From contig NC_135807.1 in assembly GCF_964213995.1 (NCBI RefSeq), forward strand, positions 115,134,001 to 115,198,000: 64,000 nucleotides of DNA, in the 5' to 3' direction. Of the stretch, positions 1 to 51,254 are shown piece after piece. A program made the translations under genes and the position numbers. Each line of letters begins with the position of its first letter. Position 1 is the stretch's first letter. This DNA comes from Mustelus asterias (Eukaryota). Below the pieces are notes generated by a model, which saw only the letters and a list, made by a program, of their open reading frames with translations, searched no databases and was not told where the DNA came from.

Positions 1-1050
1 GTTTCAAGTCTAAATGACCTTTCATCAGAGCTCTGACGAAGGGTCATCTAGACTCGAAATGATAAGACCATAAGACCATAAGACATAGGAGCGGAAGTAA
101 GGCCATTCGGCCCATCGAGTCCACTCCACCATTCAATCATGGTTGATTTCAACTCCATTTACCCGCTCTCTCCCCATAGCCCTTAATTCCTCGAGAAATC
201 AAGAATTTATCAATTTCTGTCTTGAAGACGCTCAACGTCTCGGCCTCCACAGCCCTCTGTGGCAATGAATTCCACAGACCCACCACTCTCTGGCTGAAGA
301 AATTTCTCCTCATCTCTGTTCTAAAGTGACTCCCTTTTATTCTAAGGCTGTGCCCCCGCGTCCTAGTCTCCCCTGTTAATGGAAACAACTTCCCTACGTC
401 CATCCTATCTAAGCCGTTCATTATCTTGTAAGTTTCTATCAGATCTCCCCTCAACCTCCTAAACTCCAATGAATATAATCCCACGATCCTCAGACGTTCA
501 TCGTATGTCAGGCCTACCATTCCTGGGATCATCCGTGTGAATCTCCGCTGGACCCGCTCCAGTGCCAGTATGTCCTTCCTGAGGTGTGGGGCCCAAAATT
601 GCTCACAGTACTCCAAATGGGGCCTAACCAGTGCTTTATAAAGCCTCAGAAGTACATCCCTGCTTTTGTATTCCAAGCCTCTTGAGATAAATGACAACAT
701 TACATTTGCTTTCCTAATTACGGACTCAACCTGCAAGTTTACCTTTAGAGAATCCTGGACTAGGACTCCCAAGTCCCTTTGCACTTTAGCATTATGAATT
801 TTGTCACCGTTTAGAAAATAGTCCATGCCTCTATTCTTTTTTCCAAAGTGTACGACCTCGCACTTGCCCACGTTGAATTTCATCAGCCACTTCTTGGACC
901 ACTCTCCTAAACTGTCTAAATCTTTCTGCAGCCTCCCCACCTCCTCAATACTACCTGCCCCTCCACCTATCTTTGTAATGTATGGCTCTATTCTCCCCCC
1001 ACAGAAGCTGTCAGACCTGCTGAGATTCTCCAGCATTTTCTGTTTTTGTA
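1..1050 (+). mobile_element. Penelope-like terminal-repeat palindrome (family 2) with inverted hammerhead pair, split by a CR1 insertion (pieces 1-61 and 977-1050)
   Basis: Positions 2-59 form an imperfect palindrome. The + strand reads AGAGCT-CTGACGA-A-GGGTC-ATCTA-GACTC-GAAA and the - strand CTGATGA-AAGGTC-ATTTA-GACTT-GAAA. The sequence resumes after the CR1 with TATGGCTCT...CAGACCTGCTGAGATTCTCCAGCATTTTCTG; related termini lie on the - strand at ~49250-49340 and ~58945-59050. Confidence 0.6.
62..976 (-). mobile_element. CR1 LINE, 5'-truncated (ORF2 C-terminus plus 3' UTR)
   Basis: ORF 149..1054 carries CR1 motifs (LQKDLDSL..W, FNVGKC, RDLGVLV, LVRPHLEYC, RRLRGDLIETYKI). The tail is (TCTTATGG)n and the TSD is AATG at 58-61/977-980. 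Confidence 0.92.
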
Positions 1051-2359: not shown

Positions 2360-3990
2360 CCTATGGACTGTGCATCCTGTTCTATGTGGGAACTCATGGA
2401 CACTTCTCATTTCCTGGACAACCAAATGTGCAGAGACAGTTGTCATGTGGAGGAGTTGAAGTCTGGATTTAGGAGCTTAAGTAGCACCTAGAATCACTGC
2501 GGCACATGTGTGAGGTAGAATATTTCATGAATAGCACATTTATCGACATGGTTACCCTACAGCTTACGGGTATGCAAGTAGAGAGGGAATAGGTGACTGC
2601 CAGGCAGTCACGAAGCATCAGGCAGCTACAAGAGCCCCCTGAGTGCATCTCCCTCTCCAACCAATATTCCATCTTGAACTCTGGTGAGAGGGGTATCTCC
2701 TCCGGAGTGTGCAGCCAAAACCTAATCCATGGCTGGCTGAGGAGTATGGAGGTGGGGACGTGCAATTGGGGAGCTGGTGGAAGATTTAGAAAGCAAAAGT
2801 GATAATGGATTTGATATTTAGAGACACAAACACATGGCCACAATTGTGAATCCAAGGTGATATGTTTGCTTCTCTGACTGTGAAGTTGTACGAACTAAGT
2901 AAGGGCATGATGGGAAAATTGATCAACTATTTGTTACAATATAAAGAACGGCTGACCAAAGCGATTTCAAAATGCCAGACCCTTGTAAGAGTTAATAAGG
3001 CTGTATGAGTAAATAAAACAAGATAAGGTCAGGGAGGAAGGAGTCACCGACCTTCTTCTGTTCCATCAAAGGACAAGATAAGGTTATGAATAATGAGACA
3101 AAGAGTTCTGGTAGGTCAGCAAGTTAAAACCTGATTAATGATATTGCTCACAATTCTATTACTACTCAAATTCCTGAAAATGCTCTGGTCACGAAAACTG
3201 ATAATGATTATGTATAAATACTGAACTGATTCTTTGTATAATTGCGGACTTGTGGAAGAATCAGGAGCTGTATCAACTGCTCTCTGACCCCAAGTTTCAG
3301 CCATATACTGCATGCAGTTATTCATAAATAAATGCTTGTTCTATTGATGAAACACATTTTGTAGAGTCTATCTTTCACAGTCAAGAAGCAGGAAAAGTTT
3401 CCACTTCAACATGACACAAGAGTCAAGGATGGTACTCAGTGACTGGAGAACATTCTGAGGGGGTTGGGGTCAGGAGCAAACAGCCAGTGATTGTAATCCA
3501 TATTAACATTAAGGATAGAGGCAGAGAGAAGAATTTAATTAATTAATTGAACAGGCCAACTTCAATGAGATGAGAATGGATCTGGCCCAGATAAACTAGA
3601 ATCAAAAATTGGTGGACAAAGCTGTAATGAACAATGGGTTATCTTTAAAGTAAAATTGATGTGGGTACAGCTGAGGTACATTCCTATGAGGGGGAAAAGT
3701 AAGCTCCCTGGATGGCAAAAGAGATAAAGAATAAGATGAAGCAGTAAAAGGGTATAAATGACAAATGTCCGATTGATTTTAAAAACAGGCTGAATATCCT
3801 TGTTCAGAGGACAAGTGAAAAAGAGACAAAGAGAAAGTATGAGGAAAGGCTGTCAACTAACATGAAAGGCAATGCAAAAGTGTTCTACAGGCATAAAAAT
3901 AATACAACAAATGTGGTACATTAGTGGCAGGGGACCAATCAGGAATCTTAAAGATGATTTACCCATGCTTGCAGGGGACATGGATAAGGA
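2360..3990 (+). mobile_element. Old CR1 LINE 5'/middle remnant (ORF1 zinc-finger and esterase pieces, ORF2 pieces)
   Basis: CASCSMWE..., ISLSNQYSIL and an LPxTRVKD-like motif (split by the LTR at 2879-3411), followed by degenerate ORF2-like sequence. Confidence 0.6.
2879..3411 (+). mobile_element. Solo LTR (533 bp)
   Basis: TGT...ACA termini and a 4-bp TSD TGAC (2875-2878/3412-3415). TATAA near 3237 and AATAAA near 3327. Removing it restores the CR1 ORF1 motif. Confidence 0.8.
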
Positions 3991-20600: not shown

Positions 20601-21420
20601 CCTCTTCCAGTTCCAGTTGTTGATGAGCATGACTTAGGTCGAGCTTAGTATATTTGAGGCCCCTGCTGATTAAACACAGAGGTTCTCTATCGTGGGAATA
20701 GGGTAATGATCCAGTTGAGCCCCTGTTTACCGTTAGTATGTCAGTACCCGCAGATCCTCATGTTTTGGTCGGACGTCAGGACACATCCCATTCTGACAAC
20801 TGCACAGGCTTGATGACACCCAAGTCTTCCAACCTTTTTAGTTCAACCACTACTTTTTGGTGTAATATGTATGGAACTCAGAAAAACCGAGGCGTGGCCT
20901 CAGGGTTTAGGTAAATTTTAGCTTTAACCACTTCTATCTGACCAAGTTCTCTCTGGAATGCCTGATGATATTTACATCAGAATTATTGAAATCCTCCATC
21001 CTGGACATTAAGTATTCCCAGCCTGTCCAGTTTTATTTATCTTAACCAGTGCCGTCCCATGAGTCCGGACCTCTGTCCTTCAATCACCATCATGGGTGAC
21101 TGAGCTGACTGGTTCCAATAGGATAAAGACATGAGTTTGCCCCCATTATTTTTAGTGTCTCTCCAATGTATGTCACCAAAGTAACCTCAAAATAGATCAG
21201 CTGTAAGGGCTGTTGTGCCTTCTGGAGAAGTTTGAATATCTTTTCCCCAGTGATGGTGGCCATCATGCAATTGTCAACCTCCATCTTCAGGGGGTGGCCA
21301 TTATTTAGTTATTTTTTAAATTCATTCACATTACATGTGTGTCGCTGGCTGGCTAGCATTCATTGTAAGAAGTTTAACAACACCAGGTTAAAGTCCAACA
21401 GGTTTATTTGGTAGCAAAAG

Positions 21421-21464
21421 CCACACAAGCTTTCGAGGCTCTGAGCCCCTTCTTCAGGTGAGTG
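21421..21464 (-). ncRNA. Minimal type-I hammerhead ribozyme motif
   Basis: Reverse complement of the motif at 23197-23240. Confidence 0.75.
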
Positions 21465-21742
21465 GGAATTCTGTTCACAAACAGAACTTATAAGACACAG
21501 ACTCAATTTACATGAATAATGGTTGGAATGCGAATACTTACAACTAATCCAGTCTTTAAGAAACAAAACAATGGGAGTGGAGAGAGCATCAAGACAGGCT
21601 AAAAAGATGTGTATTGTCTCCAGACAAGACAGCCAGTGAAACTCTGCAGGTCCACGCAACTGTGGGAGTTACAAATAGTGTGACATAAATTCTGATTCTA
21701 GGATCGCATGATAAAGACTCAGGAGGAAAAAAGCAGAAATAT

Positions 21743-22450
21743 TTATGTGAAATAGTGTGACATAAACCCAATATCCCGGTTGAGGCCGTCCTTGTGTGTG
21801 CGGAACCTGGCTATCAGTTTCTGCTCCGCGACTCTGCGCTGTCGTGTGTCGCGAAGGCCGCCTTGGAGAACGCTTACCCGAATATCAGAGGCCGAATGCC
21901 CGTGACCGCTGAAGTGCTCCCCAACAGGAAGAGAACAGTCTTGCCTGGTGATTGTCGAGCGGTGTTCATTCATCCGTTGTCGCAGCGTCTGCATAGTTTC
22001 CCCAATGTACCATGCCTCGGGACATCCTTTCTTGCAGCGTATCAGGTAGACAACGTTGGCCGAGTTGCAAGAGTATGTACCGTGTACCTGGTGGATGGTG
22101 TTCTCACGTGAGATGATGGCATCTGTGTCGATGATCCGGCACGTCTTGCAGAGGTTGCTGTGGCAGGGTTGTGTGGTGTCTTGGTCACTGTTCTCCTGAA
22201 GGCTGGGTAGTTTGCTGCGGACAATGGTCTGTTTGAGGTTGTGCGGTTGTTTGAAGGCAAGAAGTGGGGGTGTGGGGATGGCCTTGGCGAGATGTTCGTC
22301 TTCATCAATGACATGTTGAAGGCTCCGGAGGAGATGCCGTAGCTTCTCCGCTCCGGGGAAGTACTGGACAACGAAGGGTACTCTGTCCACTGTGTCCCGT
22401 GTTTGTCTTCTGAGGAGGTCGGTGCGGTTTTTCGCTGTGGCGCGTTGGAA
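21743..22450 (-). CDS. Penelope GIY-YIG endonuclease region with Cys-rich linker (N-truncated)
   Basis: CHSNLCKTC, NVVYLIRC..C...YIGET...LRQRMNEH, HF..HGH, E...I..F.T..GLN. Confidence 0.9.
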   Translation of the reverse strand, partial: FQRATAKNRTDLLRRQTRDTVDRVPFVVQYFPGAEKLRHLLRSLQHVIDEDEHLAKAIPTPPLLAFKQPHNLKQTIVRSKLPSLQENSDQDTTQPCHSNLCKTCRIIDTDAIISRENTIHQVHGTYSCNSANVVYLIRCKKGCPEAWYIGETMQTLRQRMNEHRSTITRQDCSLPVGEHFSGHGHSASDIRVSVLQGGLRDTRQRRVAEQKLIARFRTHKDGLNRDIGFMSHYFT

Positions 22451-22918
22451 CTACCCAGCCTTCAGGAGAACAGTGACCAAGACACCACACAACCCTGCCA
22501 CAGCAACCTCTGCAAGACGTGCCGGATCATCGACACAGATGCCATCATCTCACGTGAGAACACCATCCACCAGGTACACGGTACATACTCTTGCAACTCG
22601 GCCAACGTTGTCTACCTGATACGCTGCAAGAAAGGATGTCCCGAGGCATGGTACATTGGGGAAACTATGCAGACGCTGCGACAACGGATGAATGAACACC
22701 GCTCGACAATCACCAGGCAAGACTGTTCTCTTCCTGTTGGGGAGCACGTCAGCGGTCACGGGCATTCGGCCTCTGATATTCGGGTAAGCGTTCTCCAAGG
22801 CGGCCTTCGCGACACACGACAGCGCAGAGTCGCGGAGCAGAAACTGATAGCCAGGTTCCGCACACACAAGGACGGCCTCAACCGGGATATTGGGTTTATG
22901 TCACACTATTTCACATAA
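22449..22918 (+). CDS. Penelope GIY-YIG endonuclease region, second (inverted) copy
   Basis: Same peptide as the - arm except GEHF changed to GEHV. Confidence 0.9.
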
Positions 22919-23196
22919 ATATTTCTGCTTTTTTCCTCCTGAGTCTTTATCATGCGATCCTAGAATCAGAATTTATGTCACACTATTTGTAACTCCCACA
23001 GTTGCGTGGACCTGCAGAGTTTCACTGGCTGTCTTGTCTGGAGACAATACACATCTTTTTAGCCTGTCTTGATGCTCTCTCCACTCCCATTGTTTTGTTT
23101 CTTAAAGACTGGATTAGTTGTAAGTATTCGCATTCCAACCATTATTCATGTAAATTGAGTCTGTGTCTTATAAGTTCTGTTTGTGAACAGAATTCC

Positions 23197-23240
23197 CACT
23201 CACCTGAAGAAGGGGCTCAGAGCCTCGAAAGCTTGTGTGG
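23197..23240 (+). ncRNA. Minimal type-I hammerhead ribozyme motif
   Basis: CAC-CUGAAGA-A-GGGGCU-CAG-AGCCUC-GAAA-GC-UU-GUG, giving core boxes, stem II, palindromic mini stem III, NUH=CUU and stem I CAC/GUG. Confidence 0.75.
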
Positions 23241-24849
23241 CTTTTGCTACCAAATAAACCTGTTGGACTTTAACCTGGTGTTGTTAAACTTCTTACTGTG
23301 TTTACCCCAGTCCAACGCCGGCATCTCCACATCATGACTAGCATTCATTGCCCATCCCATTACTTTTGAGAAAGTGGTGGTGAGCTGCCTTTTTGAATTG
23401 CTGCAGTCCACATGCTGTGGGTTAACCATTAAAACAATTTCTATAAATGGTACCTTGCAGAGTTGGACTTGATTGAGTGTGTAAGCCTCAGATCCCTCCT
23501 TTGATTCCTCCGCCAGCTTGTTTACAGGGGCTGTTGATCCCACAAATTAAACGATTCCTCAATATGTCTTCCCATGAAGACCTGAACTGCTTAGCCAGCT
23601 TGTTGAAGTCTGGTCATGAAACCAGAGACCATCTCTCCTGACTCTCTAACTGCAGAATGGAATTTTTACCTTTGCATGATAATGGAACATCGAGTGTTAT
23701 TGTGATCCTTAACTAAATTAACTAACTAGTTCAAGGTTTTTGTGTCTGGAGCTTCGAGGCATGTCGAATGCCTTAGCTGGTTGTAAGCCTGTGGGCCGCA
23801 GACTGTGAGCAGTATCACTTTCTGCTTCACCTCAGTTGCTATTCAATTTATGATGAAAAAATATGATAGCCTTTGATTGTACTGCCCCCAACTCTCAATC
23901 TTGGGAATAAATGGTTCTTTTTTTCAAAATAATGGCATCTTAAGATGTGTCTTTACCCTTTTGCACTTTGAATATGAGTGATCACTCTCCCCTCCAAGTC
24001 TGCACTGCCAGCTTTCAACGACTGATCCAGTTTTCCTCGTTGCCAGTGTAATATCTCAAGCCATCTCAATGTGGCAAATAACTAACTAAAGGATTTATTG
24101 ATAATAAGAACTATATAGAATGAAGGATTCAACAGCACAACTAATATAGGTTATGGGCATGAATCTGTTTATGTCACCAGTGAGGGGTAATGAAAATTGG
24201 AAGACTTCCAAGGTATCATCGTATCTCGAGTCCCTGCCACCATTCCTGCAGTTGGTGAGCGTGGGCTCAAGATCACCTCCACTATATTTGGCATGCTCCA
24301 AACCTCAAACAGACAAAGAGGCTGTTTAGACCATCGTGTCTGTGATGGGTCTTTGGAAGAATTATCCAATTAGTCCAACTCCCCTGCTCTTTTCCAATTC
24401 AACTGTATATTTTTTATCCTTTTCAATGTCCAACTCTCTTTTAGAAGTTGCTATTGAATCCACCACCAACCTATCAGGAAGGGCATTCCCTTACACCAGA
24501 TCCATGTGCAAAATAATTTCTCCATATCTGTTTCTGCTTCTCTTGCCAATTGCATTAAATCTATGTCCTCTGGTTACCGACCCGCCGACCAGTGAAAATC
24601 ATTTCTCATTATTTATTCCATGATAATCTTTCTTAATTTTGAAAAAAAACTCTATTAAATCTCTGCTTCCCCTTCACTGCACCAAGTAGAAGAACCTCAG
24701 TTTCTCCAATCTTCCTCCGAAGAGATTGCTTGGACAGGACTGGAAATTTCCACCCAAAGTCAACGGAATTTTGGCTATCCATGACTATTCCCGCCTCTTG
24801 AATTATTAACTTCAGTATCAGAAAAAACAAGTACATCTGAAGCTATACA

Positions 24850-27747: not shown

Positions 27748-27946
27748 CCTTTAAGTTTCATCTTTGCAACCATATTCCCCCCGGAACCCAAAGACTTTGG
27801 TTTCCCGGAAGCTGCTTGGCGGGTCATGGGAATAATGCCACCGGATCGTTAGTTGGCATCGTTTATGGTTGGAACTACGACGGTATGTGATCATCTTTGA
27901 ACCTCCGACTTTCGTTCTTGATAAATGAAAACATTCTTGGCAAATG
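27748..27946 (-). pseudogene. 18S rRNA fragment (~200 bp, central domain)
   Basis: The - strand reads CATTTGCCAAGAATGTTTTCATT..CAAGAACGAAAGTCGGAGGTTC...ATACCGTCGTAGTTCC.ACCATAAACGATGCC...GGGAAACCAAAGTCTTTGGGTTCCGGGGG..TATGGTTGCAAAG.TGAAACTTAAAGG, which is conserved vertebrate 18S sequence. Confidence 0.95.
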
Positions 27947-29525: not shown

Positions 29526-30812
29526 CTAGCGAGTGAACCACCTGGTGATCAGGGTCTCCCTTGCCACCCTCGCATGCCTCATTTGGGCTGCCAGCCCTTG
29601 AGCGCTTTGTTGGTATTCTTCAGCATGCTCTTCCTCATCTTCCTCCTCTTCCTCTTCCTCCTCTTCCTGCTGGCCATCCTCCCCAGCGATGTCCAGCTGG
29701 TCAGACTCCATGTCCTCCTCCTCTTCCTCCAAGAGGTCACCTCTCTGAAGAGCCAGATTGTGCAAGGCACGATCCCGACCATTATGCAGGAACAGATCAC
29801 TGTGTTGTATTGGAAGGCCCTGCCAGATCGGTCCAGGTACTAGAATCACATCTTGAGGAGCCCAATGCACTTCTCCACTATCGCGCGGGTGGCTACATGG
29901 GCCTTATTATAGCAGGCCTTCGCCTCAGACGCAGGCCTCTGTACAGGCATCATCAGCCATGTCCGAAGTGGGTAACCCATATCACCCAGGAGCCAACCTC
30001 GCAGCCTGGGCTCCTCCTCGAATGCCTCCGGGATGTCCGAGCTCTTGACAATGAAACTGTCATTCATGCTGCCTGGATGTCTGGTGCAGACGTGCATGAT
30101 GGTCATGTTATGGTCGCACACTAGCTGAACATTCAGGGAGTCGAACCCCTTCCTATTTACAAACCTTTGCGGATTCTGTAAGGAGGCCGCGAGGGCAATG
30201 TGTGTACAGTTGCTCACCCCCTGCATGTTAGGCACCTCCCCCTCAGTGGCTACGAACCCTGTAGCCCGGGATTCCTGCTGTGCCTGGTCCAGGTTGAAGT
30301 TGATGAACCGGCCAGCTTGGGCATACAGGGCTTCAGTAACCTGCCTCACACAGGTGTGCACGGCAGATTGGGAGACGCCACAGACACCTCCGCTAGGGGT
30401 CTGGAAAGAACCAGTCACGTAGAAGTTTAGAGTGGCCGTCAATTTGATAGCCTCCTGAGAGTGGGTGCCTCCCCCACCTCCCCCAACCACCCCCCACCCT
30501 GGCCAGGAGGTGCCAGGCCCTGCAACAGGCTGCACAGGTGTTGCACGGTTTATTTTCAGAGTCGGAGAGCTCGGCGGCACATGGTGTCTGACACTTGCTC
30601 GAAGTGCATGGAACTGCCGGGGTCTCTTCTCCCTCCTTCTCCTACGCCACCCCTCTCTGGGTAAATGGTGGCCATCTCCTGCCTCTGGTGGTGGTCTCCC
30701 TCTTGTCCTGGAATTGGTAAGGCCTGGGCCTCCTGTGCCCGCAATTCTTCCTCCTCAGCTCCAGCAGCAACCAAAAGAACAGCAAGATTTATTGGTTGAT
30801 AGAAAAAGCCAT
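29526..30812 (-). pseudogene. Harbinger DDE transposase (HARBI1-like), disrupted
   Basis: LNFYVTGSFQ, GVSQSAVH, QGVSNCTHI (the first catalytic D position reads N), NRKGFDSLNVQLVCD, PGSMNDSF, LLGDMGYPL and IVEKCIGLLKM*. Frameshifts are present. Confidence 0.9.
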
Positions 30813-32239: not shown

Positions 32240-35070
32240 TAACAAAAGAACAAAGAACAAAGAACAGTACAGCACAGGAAACAGGCCCTTCGACCCTCCA
32301 AGCCTGTGCCGCTCCTTGGTCCAACTAGACCAATCGTTTGTATCCCTCCATTCCCAGGCTGCTCATGTGACTATCCAGGTAAGTCTTAAACGATGTCAGC
32401 GTGCCCGCCTCCATCACCCTACTTGGCAGTGCATTCCAGGCCCCCACCACCCTCTGTGTAAAAAACGTCCCTCTGATGTCTGAGTTATACTTCGCCCCTC
32501 TCAGCTTGAGCCCATGACCCCTCGTGATCGTCACCTCCGACCTGGGAAAAAGCTTCCCACTGTTCACCCTATCTATACCCTTCATAATCTTGTATACCTC
32601 TATTAGATCTCCCCTCATTCTCCGTCTTTCCAAGGAGAACAACCCCAGTCTACCCAATCTCTCCTCATAGCTAAGACCCTCCATACCAGGCAACATCCTG
32701 GTAAACCTTCTCTGCACTCTCTCCAATGCCTCCACGTCCTTCTGGTAGTGCGGCGACCAGAACTGGACGCAGTACTCCAAATGTGGCCTAACCAGAGTTC
32801 TATACAGCTGCATCATCAGACTCCAGCTTTTATACTCTATACCCCGTCCTATAAAGGCAAGCATACCATATGCCTTCTTCACCACCTTCTCCACCTGTGT
32901 TGCCACCTTCAAGGATTTGTGGACTTGCACACCTAGGTCCCTCTGTGTTTCTATACTCCTGATGACTCTGCCATTTATTGTATAACTCCTCCCTACATTA
33001 TTTCTTCCAAAATGCATCACTTCGCATTTATCCGGATTAAATTCCATCTGCCACCTCTCCGCCCAATTTTCCAGCCTATCTATATCCTGCTGTATTGCCC
33101 GACAATGCTCTTCGCTATCCGCAATTCCAGCCATCTTCGTGTCATCCGCAAACTTGCTGATTACACCAGTTACACCTTCTTCCAAATCATTTATATATAT
33201 CACAAATAGCAGAGGTCCCAGTACAGAGCCCTGCGGAACACCACTGGTCACAGACCTCCAAAGCTTGTGTGGCTTTTGCTACCAAATAAACCTGTTGGAC
33301 TTTAACCTGGTGTTGTTAAACTTCTTACTGTGTTTACCCCAGTCCAACGCCGGCATCTCCACATCACAGACCTCCAGCCAGAAAAAGACCCTTCGACCAC
33401 TACCCTCTGTCTCCTATGGCCAAGCCAGTTCTCCACCCATCTAGCCACTTCTCCTTGTATCCCATGAGCCTTAACCTTCTTAACCAACCTGCCATGTGGG
33501 ACTTTGTCAAATGCCTTACTGAAATCCATATAGACGACATTCACGGCCCTTCCTTCATCAACCGTTTTTGTCACTTCCTCAAAAAACTCCACCAAATTTG
33601 TAAGGCACGACCTCCCTCTTACAAAACCATGCTGTCTGTCACTAATGAGATTGTTCCGTTCTAAATGCACATACATCCTGTCTCTAAGAATCCTCTCCAA
33701 CAACTTCCCTACCACGGACGTCAAGCTCACCGGCCTATAATTTCCTGGGTTATCCCTGCTACCCTTCTTAAACAACGGGACCACATTCGCTATCCTCCAA
33801 TCCTCAGGGACCTCACCCGTGTCCAAAGAAGCGACAAAGATTTCCGTCAGAGGCCCAGCAATTTCACCTCTCGTCTCCCTGAGCAGTCGAGGATAGATGC
33901 CATCAGGCCCTGGGGCTTTGTCAGTTTTAATGTTCCCTAAAAAACCTAACACTTCCTCTCTTGTAATGGAAATTTTCTCTAACGGGTCAACACCTCCCTC
34001 CGAGACACTCCCGGTTAACACGCCCCTCTCCTTCGTGAATACCGATGCAAAGTATTCATTTAGGATCTCCCCTATTCCCTTGGGTTCTAAGCATAATTCC
34101 CCTCCTTTGTCCCTGAGAGGTCCGATTTTCTCCCTGACAACTCTTTTGTTCCTAACGTATGAATAGAATGCCTTAGGATTCTCCTTAATCCTGCCTGCCA
34201 AGAACATCTCGTGACCTCTTTTTGCCCTTCTAACTCCCCGTTTGAGTTCTTTCCTACTCTCTCTGTATTCCTCCAGAGCTCCATCTGTTTTCAGTTGCCT
34301 GGACTTAACGTACGCCTCCCTTTTCATTTTAATCAGATCCTCAATTTCCCTGGTTATCCACGGCTCTCGAATCCTACCTTTCCTATCTTTCCTTTTTACA
34401 GGCACATGCCTATCCTGCAGCCTTATCAATAGTTCCTTAAAAGACTCCCACATGCCAGACGCGGACTTACCCTCGAACATCCTCTCCCAATCAACATCCA
34501 CCAATTCCTGCCTAATCCGGCTATAGTCAGCCTTCCCCCAATTTAGCACCCTGCCCGTAGGACAGCACTCATCCTTGTCCATTACTATCCTAAAGTTAAC
34601 AGAGTTGTGGTCACTATTTGCCACATGTTCCCCTACCGAAACTTTGACGACCTGACCGGGCTCATTTCCCAGAACTAGGTCCAGTATAGCCCCCTCTCTA
34701 GTCGGGCTATCTACATACTGTTCCAAAGAACCTTCCAGTACGCATTTTACAAATTCCTCCCCGTCCGGTCCCCCAGCTCTAAGCACTTTCCAGTCTGTGC
34801 CAGGGAAATTAAAGTCCCCCACTACAACAACCCTATGTTTTCTGCACCTATCCAGAATCTCCTGACATATCCTTTCCTCCACTTCCCGTGGGCTGTTGGG
34901 TGGTCTGTAGTACACCCCCAGCATAGTGACTGCACCCTTCCTGTTTCTGAGTTCCACCCACAGCGACTCAGTACATGACCCCTCTAAGTTGTCTACCCTC
35001 TGCACCGCGGTAATATGCTCCTTAACTAATATTGCTACTCCCCCACCTTTTTTAGCCCCTCCTCTGTCTC
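32240..35070 (-). mobile_element. Young CR1 LINE, 5'-truncated; ORF2 (APE end plus RT) open except for one Penelope insertion
   Basis: GVYYRPP, VVGDFNFP, KAPGPDG, NYRPVSLTS, DFSKAFDKVPH, GVPQGSVLGP, FADD. Tail (TTGTTCT)n and CATA on both flanks. Confidence 0.95.
33261..33363 (+). mobile_element. 103-bp Penelope 3' terminus inserted in CR1 ORF2
   Basis: Matches 23229-23331; 13-bp TSD TCACAGACCTCCA (33248-33260/33364-33376). Confidence 0.93.
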
Positions 35071-46140: not shown

Positions 46141-46305
46141 TTTTAAATGGAAACCAAAAAGTTACTATCAGAGATGTGGGGTGGGATTTTATGGCCTCAC
46201 TCATGTGAGACCGGAAATTTCCACCTGAGGTCAACAGACATTTCTGTTGTCCATCCCTCGCCCATTCCGATTCCAGCTCCTGGATCTCCTGCTCATTTTC
46301 ATCGA

Positions 46306-46514
46306 GTTAAAGTCCAACAGGTTTATTTGGTAGCAAATACCATAAGCTTTCGGAGCACTGCTCCTTCGTCAGATGGAATTTCCACTCCATCTGACGAGGG
46401 AGCAGTGCTCCGAAAGCTTATGGTATTTACTACCAAATAAACCTGTTGGACATTAGCCTGGTGTTGTGAGACTTCTTACTGTGTTCACCCCAGTCCAACG
46501 CCGGCATCTCCACA
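46306..46514. mobile_element. 209-bp non-coding Penelope-derived palindrome carrying two back-to-back hammerheads
   Basis: 13-bp TSD TCATTTTCATCGA (46293-46305/46515-46527); the arms are inverted around 46377-46386. Confidence 0.9.
46387..46423 (+). ncRNA. Minimal hammerhead ribozyme motif (second copy on - at 46340-46376)
   Basis: CCAU-CUGACGA-G-GGAGC-AGU-GCUCC-GAAA-GC-UU-AUGG. Confidence 0.8.
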
Positions 46515-47109
46515 TCATTTTCATCGAACCAGGTGTAGGAAAGTTGATTAGATCATCAAGGATTTAAAGAGGAACTCAACTGCCTGCCTTCAATTCAGTG
46601 AATTCAACTAAGGAGCTGCCACCTCTAAACACCTATAGAGGACAAGAGCAGCTCCCTGCCAGCTTAGAATATCTCTTAACAGAACTCTCCATCTACCTAG
46701 CGAAGGGTACCAAAATCAGAAAGAGCTTACAGGTAGCGGAATTGACAGCAGTACTCCAAAGGTTTTTCCAAAGCCAAGGTTGTATATTTTTTGAGAGTGA
46801 CTAAATTTCTGGGGGGGTTTTGGGTGATGAATAGACTTTGTACTTATTTGAACAGCATTCCAGAAGTATTTTACTTTAATCCATATGTTACTTGTTTAGT
46901 TAAAGTTCCCGATTGGTTAAATAAATAACTTGTTTATTGTCCACTTAAAGCGAGCGTCAGGTAAATCTTTTGTTTAACCTCTAAACATTAATGAAGAACA
47001 GTTAACACCTTCCCAAACACTTTAAACAGATTACGAAGTGAGGCATTCCTCTTTGGGGAATTTGGCGTGGGTTCTCAAAAAGGGGATCAACTTCTGTGTC
47101 GTAGCAGCA

Positions 47110-49847: not shown

Positions 49848-50530
49848 GATGTGGAGATGCCGGCGTTGGACTGGGGTAAACACAGTAAGAAGTCTCACAA
49901 CACCAGATTAAAGTCCAACAGGTTTATTTGGTAGCAAAAGCCACTAGGTTTCAGAGTGCTGCTCCTTCATCAGGTAAGTGGGAGTTCTGTTCACAAACAG
50001 GGCATATAAAGACACAAACTCAATTTACAAAATAATGGTTGGAATGCGAGTCTTTACAGGTAATCAAGTCTTAAAGGTACAGACAATGTGAGTGGAGAGA
50101 GCGTTCTCCAAGGCGGCCTTCACGACACACGACAACGCAGAGTCGCTGAGCAGAGACTAATAGCCAAGTTCCGCACACATGAGGACGGCCTCCACTGGGA
50201 TCTTGGGTTCATGTCACACTATCTGTAACCCCCACGACTTGCCTGGGCTTGCAAAATCTCACTAACTGTCCTGTCTGGAGACAATACACATCTCTTTAAC
50301 CTGTGCATAACGCTCTCTCCACTCACATTGTCTGTACCTTTAAGACTTGATTAGCTGTAAAGACTCGCATTCCAACCATTATTTTGTAAATTGAGTTTGT
50401 CTTTATATGCCCTGTTTGTGAACAGAACTCCCACTTACCTGACGAAGGAGCCGCGCTCCGAAAGCAAGTGACTTTTGCGACCAAATAAACCTGTTGGACT
50501 TTAACCTGGTGTTGTGAGGCTTCTTACTAT
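49848..50530. mobile_element. Penelope 3'-end palindrome (subfamily variant) with hammerhead motifs at 49942-49980 (-) and 50432-50470 (+)
   Basis: 11-bp TSD CTTTCTGTCAG (49837-49847/50531-50541), junction microhomology AGCGTT (50100-50105), and GIY-YIG C-terminal codons at 50101-50227. Confidence 0.9.
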
Positions 50531-51254
50531 CTTTCTGTCAGCCCAGACCACTTCCACCAATGGCATGGTGGTCCAGTCTTAAGCTGAGCCCTCAAGGCCG
50601 AAAGCTTCTTGAGGGCATTGTGCAAGGCAAACTTTCTCCACAAGTGAAAGTTGGCAGCTTTCCATCAACCATACTGCAGCAATTGTTGTCACTCTACAGA
50701 GGAGTATCTGGACAGACAGAAACATCTGCAAAACAAGCAGTAGAGGAATGCCCAAGTTTGAACAGATAATTTCTGTTAATATACTGGATGTGTTTTTGGA
50801 GAACAATGTTATAAAATCATGTTTGGCAGTTTTTATTGTGGGATCTTGACTAAGAGAATTTTGTAATGGGGTAAACAGATAGATGGTGAGGTAGGGAATC
50901 TTGGAGCCATGGTAGTGAAGGGAAATAGTTCGATAGAAAGCAGAGTGTGAACAAGCCTTGAAGGAGAGAAAAAGGCTGTCCCAGATGCCCTGCCTCCTCT
51001 TCCTCCTCTCAATCTCCTCCTGCTCTTCCAATTCCAACGGTAGCCTCCAGATTCCTGGTTGCACCCCAAAAATTCCGCATTGTGGAGGATGCAGGAGTTG
51101 ATCACAACCTAAGGTTCAGTATCTACTGTGGTCCAGGTATTCCAAAGTGCTGCTTTAGGATACAGATAGCCTTCTCCCAGATGTTCCTGCGAGCTTTATG
51201 GCTCTTGTTATACACCTTATGTTCTTGCATGGTGGAATGGCAGGGGGCAGTTTT

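What the first reader, a model, noticed from the sequence alone, without database searches (positions are those of the whole stretch)
46306..46514. 209-bp TSD-flanked non-coding element made of two back-to-back hammerhead ribozymes
Seen: an almost pure palindrome of Penelope terminal repeat with a clean 13-bp TSD, no ORF, and an intact hammerhead core on each strand (46340-46376 on -, 46387-46423 on +). Positions 1-61 show the same back-to-back geometry in a different Penelope family. Known: Penelope-like elements carry minimal hammerheads whose palindromic stem III is thought to need dimerisation. Inference: these are either products of double priming that stop just past the ribozyme, or a self-propagating, retrozyme-like non-autonomous unit with a ribozyme in either transcription direction.
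Basis: partly seen in the sequence, partly recalled or inferred. Interest (0 to 1): 0.7.

Follow-up and report, generated by a model that had tools for sequence, protein, structure and literature searches.

The report
Mirror-image Penelope retrotransposon stump
This 209-base mirror-image insert is one of thousands of cut-short landings of a very abundant Penelope-type jumping gene, with centres that mostly differ from copy to copy; it likely formed when both cut DNA strands copied the same RNA, and its two ribozyme motifs are predicted to be locked shut.

Summary
In detail: 46306-46514, exact 13-bp TSD, 70-bp arms 96% complementary, and a minimal type I hammerhead core on each strand. It is not a self-propagating unit. 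The genome holds 4,087 such back-to-back joins with a gap up to 30 nt, and 45 of 46 fetched centres differ. The exact junction occurs 8 times, but three neighbouring variants are commoner, and those copies come from several subfamilies with the tail on either side. It is the short end of a size series of head-to-head insertions of a Neptune/Nematis-type Penelope element, a layout already in print (PMC8557442, PMC3846280). In 51 sampled insertions, 50 have exactly one tail, either arm can be the longer, and arm lengths are coupled (rho 0.89). That favours priming from both nicks on one RNA over fold-back. In any read-through transcript the antisense arm precedes the ribozyme and is predicted to sequester it. 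Joins pile up about 3-5-fold just upstream of the hammerhead; a pile-up at the predicted cut is only suggestive, because a control window also shows peaks. The scan noted this structure before, here and in other genomes.

The parts
46293..46305 (+). left target-site duplication, 13 bp
   Evidence: exact match to 46515-46527
46306..46377 (-). inverted arm: 3' end of a Penelope-like element without tail; stops 65 nt past CUGA (usually about 85-99) and reaches 5 nt upstream of CUGA
46340..46376 (-). minimal type I hammerhead motif; predicted cut between 46344 and 46343
   Evidence: motif scan; activity untested
46377..46378 (.). head-to-head junction; no microhomology and no inserted bases against the family's upstream sequence
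46378..46479 (+). direct arm: 3' end of the same element, reaching 13 nt upstream of CUGA
46387..46423 (+). minimal type I hammerhead motif; predicted cut between 46419 and 46420
   Evidence: motif scan; predicted unpaired as a ribozyme in the whole-element fold
46480..46514 (+). one-sided tail of about 35-37 nt
   Evidence: on exactly one arm in 50 of 51 sampled insertions; tail as described in PMC8557442 and PMC11167929
46515..46527 (+). right target-site duplication, 13 bp
21365..23335 (.). larger head-to-head insertion of the same family: 848-bp arms 99.9% alike, one tail, GIY-YIG coding remnant
49848..50534 (.). mid-size head-to-head insertion of the same family, 228-bp mirror part, one tail
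1..61 (.). back-to-back join of a second hammerhead-bearing family, AGCT centre

Best explanation
The element is a one-off, strongly 5'-truncated, head-to-head insertion of an abundant endonuclease-bearing Penelope-like retrotransposon, likely made when both nicked target strands primed reverse transcription on the same element RNA. Shown: the anatomy, the parent family, the diversity of centres and the family-wide regularities. Inferred steps: (1) the GIY-YIG endonuclease makes staggered nicks about 13 nt apart; (2) each 3' end primes cDNA, one at the outer start site (giving the tail) and one at the inner site (no tail); (3) both cDNAs stop early, here 13 and 5 nt past the hammerhead's CUGA; (4) host end-joining fuses the two 5'-truncated ends, blunt here and often with microhomology or templated inserts elsewhere. 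The hammerheads are passengers of the pLTR. A transcript from either flank reads the antisense arm first, so a long hairpin is predicted to form, and each strand carries only one ribozyme copy, with no dimer partner in cis.
For: Parent: a 32-nt stretch of the 3' end has 164,125 exact matches. Long arms carry an ORF end with a Pfam GIY-YIG hit preceded by a C-x4-C-x2-C linker, the motif given for Neptune/Nematis in PMC8557442. Size series: head-to-head pairs with anchor-to-anchor gaps of -2 to 2,340 nt; 209, 687 and about 1,970 bp in this window. Centres: 45 distinct of 46; 28 with inserts, 9 blunt, 9 overlapping. Among 51 kept pairs (58 candidates, 7 dropped for unexplained inserts over 60 nt): one tail in 50, TSD found in 47 (12-13 bp in 28), tail arm longer in 23, shorter in 21, equal in 6. 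Arm lengths: Spearman 0.89; 28 of 50 within 15 nt against 6.0 in permutations. Both arms share a 7-nt subfamily tag in 38 of 51 against 11.4 shuffled. In vitro, anole PAc nicks and extends both strands, has two RT start sites that bound the tail, and does not need hammerhead cleavage (PMC11167929). Whole-element fold: stem I and II pair probabilities 0 to 8 decimals.
Against: In this copy the tail arm is the longer one and the short arm ends about 24 nt before the usual inner start site (65 nt; 2 of 27 other short arms ended at 65 nt or less). Fold-back of a single cDNA therefore also fits this copy. PAc is Poseidon-clade, while this family is Neptune/Nematis-type. Arm lengths in short near-palindromes are hard to assign, which can inflate the correlation. 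The sample comes from the first 3.7 Mb of one contig. No full-length parent with RT was retrieved.
Confidence: 0.75

Rival explanations
1. Fold-back self-priming: one cDNA, primed at the tail, snaps back near its 3' end and copies itself to make the inverted arm.
For: PMC3846280 reads palindromes at inverted PLE junctions as self-priming (passages). It explains same-subfamily arms and near-equal lengths. In this copy the tail arm is the longer. Palindromic centres recur.
Against: In 21 of 50 one-tailed insertions the tail-less arm is the longer, some by hundreds of bases (214 vs 1115, 206 vs 572); a fold-back cannot add a tail absent from its template. Tail-less arms end in a narrow zone (74 of 162 arm ends at 85-99 nt, 72 at 125-129 nt). 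This junction offers no clean self-complementary primer.
Confidence: 0.15
2. A self-propagating, non-autonomous palindromic unit (retrozyme-like) that is transcribed, cleaved and re-inserted.
For: The exact 24-nt junction occurs 8 times, with different flanks. The hammerhead cores are intact. In the second family the AGCT centre is 12 of about 53 listed places.
Against: Three neighbouring junction variants are commoner. Of the 8, one (L006) has a longer centre; the other 7 carry the tail on the long side in 4 and on the short side in 3, and show at least three stem-I/III types shared by both arms of a copy. Identical centres also recur in a control window without a ribozyme core (5 of 35). There is no tandem array, which defines non-LTR retrozymes. 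The predicted fold excludes the ribozyme.
Confidence: 0.04
3. A longer head-to-head insertion later lost its middle by hairpin- or cruciform-induced deletion, leaving a short stump.
For: Long near-perfect palindromes of this family exist and are known to be unstable (recalled). Symmetric trimming would couple arm lengths. Templated inserts at centres fit repair.
Against: Long palindromes with 99.9% alike arms persist in this window. Solo arms are also cut short in the same zone. It does not explain the one-tail rule.
Confidence: 0.06

Closest known systems
Insertion structure of endonuclease-bearing Penelope-like elements: pLTR, adjacent inverted 5'-truncated copy, one-sided 30-40-bp tail, TSD (PMC8557442, PMC3846280; passages read)
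   Same: Head-to-head inverted copy, tail on one end only, TSD, hammerhead in the pLTR, GIY-YIG parent with C-x4-C-x2-C linker
   Different: Reduced to the two 3' ends with no ORF; short arm stops about 24 nt earlier than usual
Minimal hammerheads of metazoan PLEs (PMC4209133; passages read)
   Same: Type I, extra base between A9 and stem II, palindromic stem III; that paper already reports dual motifs on opposite strands 100-700 bp apart in Schistosoma mansoni
   Different: The two cores here are only 18 nt apart, inside a near-perfect hairpin
PAc (Poseidon of Anolis) in vitro mechanism (PMC11167929; parts 1-2 of 4 read)
   Same: Both strands nicked and extended; two RT start sites that bound the tail
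   Different: Different clade; in PAc the ORF starts in the hammerhead. The parts read do not derive head-to-head insertions from twin priming
Animal non-LTR retrozymes (bioRxiv 10.64898/2026.07.22.740005; part 1 of 5 and passages read)
   Same: Non-coding, PLE-derived, type I hammerhead
   Different: Retrozymes are tandem direct repeats with ribozymes on one strand; this is an inverted pair with no sign of its own amplification

Membership tests
EN+ Penelope-like element insertion | Terminal repeat linked to an ORF with C-terminal GIY-YIG endonuclease | tested here: met
   long arms of the family end an ORF about 250 nt upstream of the anchor; Pfam GIY-YIG E 9e-05, 2e-04 and 6e-04 in 2 of 3
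EN+ Penelope-like element insertion | Telomerase-like RT upstream in the same ORF | not tested
   no full-length copy retrieved; longest arm about 1.5 kb
EN+ Penelope-like element insertion | Inverted 5'-truncated copy, one-sided tail and TSD | tested here: met
   this copy; 50 of 51 one tail, 47 of 51 TSD
EN+ Penelope-like element insertion | Minimal hammerhead motif in the pLTR | tested here: met
   against the description in PMC4209133
Neptune/Nematis clades | CX2-5CxxC motif upstream of GIY-YIG | tested here: met
   C-x4-C-x2-C in translated arms; motif as given in PMC8557442
Neptune/Nematis clades | RT phylogeny | not tested
   no RT sequence in hand
Non-LTR retrozyme | Tandem direct units, each with a hammerhead on the same strand | tested here: not met
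   two inverted arms, one motif per strand; definition
Non-LTR retrozyme | Amplification as a unit with fixed structure | tested here: not met
Non-LTR retrozyme | Self-cleavage and circular RNA | not testable with these tools
   needs a cleavage assay and RNA reads of this organism

The most novel reading that the evidence does not exclude
The thousands of stumps are a fossil read-out of the Penelope insertion reaction: both arms are copied from one RNA from the two nicks, and the places where arms stop mark that RNA's 5' ends, one a few to 30 nt upstream of the hammerhead (a transcription start) and one at the hammerhead's own cut, so the minimal ribozyme does cleave in the germ line.
Probability: 0.35. 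Interest if true: 0.5.

Novelty: new member of a known kind. Interest (0 to 1): 0.2.

Why it matters
The single element is ordinary. Its value is as one data point in a very large natural experiment. How Penelope-like elements build inverted repeats and one-sided tails is stated as unresolved in PMC8557442, and the family statistics (one tail, either arm longer, coupled lengths, same subfamily) give a testable twin-priming model that fits the in vitro behaviour of PAc. If the stop positions mark RNA ends, they would also bear on whether the weak minimal hammerheads cleave in vivo.

Tried and rejected
Rfam scan: no hammerhead family match at the element. Sequencing runs: no RNA holder listed, which says nothing about expression. 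Contigs of 5 runs laid on the locus were swamped by other family copies, and no contig bridging an empty site was among the rows shown, so polymorphism is undecided. First arm-length estimates (and the second pass) ran through palindromic centres and were discarded; one search uses long natural copies as references. Cleavage-site footprint: 47 of 98 arm ends lie within 1 nt of the predicted cut (17% expected under a simple triangular null), 29 of 54 among joins with inserts. A control window 18-20 nt downstream also has sharp peaks (10 and 11 of 70 at single positions; 13 of 26 insert-only ends in a 3-nt window), and normalised join density at the cut (about 2,000-2,500) is not above that window (about 3,500-3,800). 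I do not count the footprint as shown. A hard stop within 20 nt upstream of the hammerhead was rejected: most arms run further (about 65 of 100 listed, by eye). Literature searches; 'Penelope-like' with 'twin priming' listed 3 papers, none on this by title or abstract (listing only). The library lacks many subscription papers, and I read no supplements; those of PMC11167929 (Fig. S2) bear on RNA ends at the cut.

Full report
Observation. The element lies at 46306-46514 between exact 13-bp direct repeats. Its arms, 46308-46377 and 46386-46455, are 96% complementary over 70 nt. The right arm continues into a tail of about 35-37 nt. No ORF of 120 aa or more overlaps it.

Parent family. The window lies in a 3.68-Gb genome. 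Earlier scan notes call such hosts sharks; I did not test this. A 32-nt piece of the element's 3' end has 164,125 exact matches. Long copies end an ORF about 250 nt upstream of that piece, with a GIY-YIG domain behind a C-x4-C-x2-C linker, the Neptune/Nematis mark in PMC8557442. The window holds two larger head-to-head insertions of the family, at 49848-50534 and 21365-23335. PMC8557442 and PMC3846280 describe this layout: inverted 5'-truncated copy, one-sided tail, TSD. PMC4209133 notes dual hammerheads on opposite strands.

Is it a mobile unit? The 24-nt junction has 8 exact matches. One has a longer centre. The other 7 carry the tail on the long side in 4 and on the short side in 3, and fall into at least three sequence types that both arms of a copy share. 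Among the first 100 of 116 neighbouring junction variants this one occurs 7 times, against 22 for the variant with a 1-nt overlap, 15 and 11 for two others (by eye). Back-to-back joins number 4,087, 2,009 and 750 for gaps of 0-30, 31-60 and 61-90 nt between the cores. Of 46 fetched (from the first 50 listed), 45 centres differ; 28 have inserted bases, 9 are blunt, 9 overlap. Identical centres also recur where no ribozyme core is kept (5 of 35). Recurrence therefore reflects preferred joins, not descent.

How it likely forms. I sampled 162 arms around the first exact 3' anchors of contig C1. Of 58 candidate inverted pairs, 7 with unexplained inserts over 60 nt were dropped. Of the 51 kept, 50 have exactly one tail and 47 a TSD, mostly 12-13 bp. 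The tail arm is longer in 23, shorter in 21 and equal in 6. A single cDNA folding back cannot give a tailed short arm, so a second priming on RNA is inferred. Arm lengths are coupled (rho 0.89; 28 of 50 within 15 nt against 6.0 permuted) and arms share a subfamily tag (38 of 51 against 11.4 shuffled; most mismatches are single substitutions), which points to one RNA. This fits PMC11167929: PAc nicks and extends both strands and starts at two sites that bound the tail. For this copy alone fold-back is not excluded, as its tail arm is the longer and its short arm ends early.

The ribozymes. On either strand the hammerhead arm is the 3' arm, preceded by its complement. The predicted fold is a hairpin of about -140 kcal/mol in which stems I and II have pair probability 0; in the right arm alone stem II reaches 0.23 and stem I 0.02. 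Each transcript has one motif, whereas these motifs are thought to cleave as dimers, weakly (PMC4209133; PMC6765202 passages). Activity was not assayed.

Why it stops just past the ribozyme. In the sample the stop rate is 0.0145 per nt about 6-16 nt upstream of CUGA, 0.004-0.005 inside the core, 0.0096 around the predicted cut and 0.0014-0.0034 beyond 70 nt from the anchor. Genome-wide, one subfamily group gives 1,724 joins just upstream against 408 inside the core, about 3-5-fold after rough normalisation. This element's ends (5 and 13 nt upstream) sit at this peak. The cause is not shown; an RNA 5' end there is one reading, RT release after the structured region another. A second peak at the predicted cut (47 of 98 ends within 1 nt) is tempting, but a control window shows peaks of like size, so I rate it suggestive only. 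Earlier scan notes proposed both readings; they are not independent support.

Second family (1-61). About 380 back-to-back joins match. The AGCT centre is 12 of about 53 listed places. The 12 fetched copies vary in arm length and mostly show one tail (by eye), as expected of a self-complementary 4-nt joining site. A mobile unit was not excluded as firmly here as for the main family.

Verdict. A real feature and a new member of a known kind; interest 0.2. The family-level evidence for twin priming on one RNA is the part worth keeping.

Noticed in passing
window 21365-23335: About 2-kb head-to-head insertion of the same family with 848-bp arms 99.9% alike, one tail and a 13-bp TSD; likely young.
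   Followed up: partly
window 33251-33366: Solo tail-bearing arm between short direct repeats that begins in the hammerhead's stem III palindrome, a few bases upstream of the predicted cut.
   Followed up: no
window 1-61 and loci L264-L284: In the second family the listed joins mostly fall within about 5 nt upstream of CUGA, tighter than in the main family; this may mark a fixed 5' end of a short non-autonomous form.
   Followed up: partly
L122 (G000:C1 about 2067505-2067669): Both arms stop within 1 nt of the predicted cut and enclose 153 nt of unrelated sequence; a similar pair at C1 about 746424-746937 encloses 426 nt.
   Followed up: no
listings: Many centres hold short locally templated repeats, typical of polymerase-theta-type end joining (interpretation recalled, not tested).
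   Followed up: no
window 27786-27913: 128-nt fragment of eukaryotic SSU rRNA on the - strand.
   Followed up: no
window 29846-30754: DDE_Tnp_4 (Harbinger-type) transposase-like frame in a GC-rich stretch.
   Followed up: no
window 32325-35068: LINE remnant with AP endonuclease and RT domains, interrupted by the solo Penelope arm near 33251.
   Followed up: no
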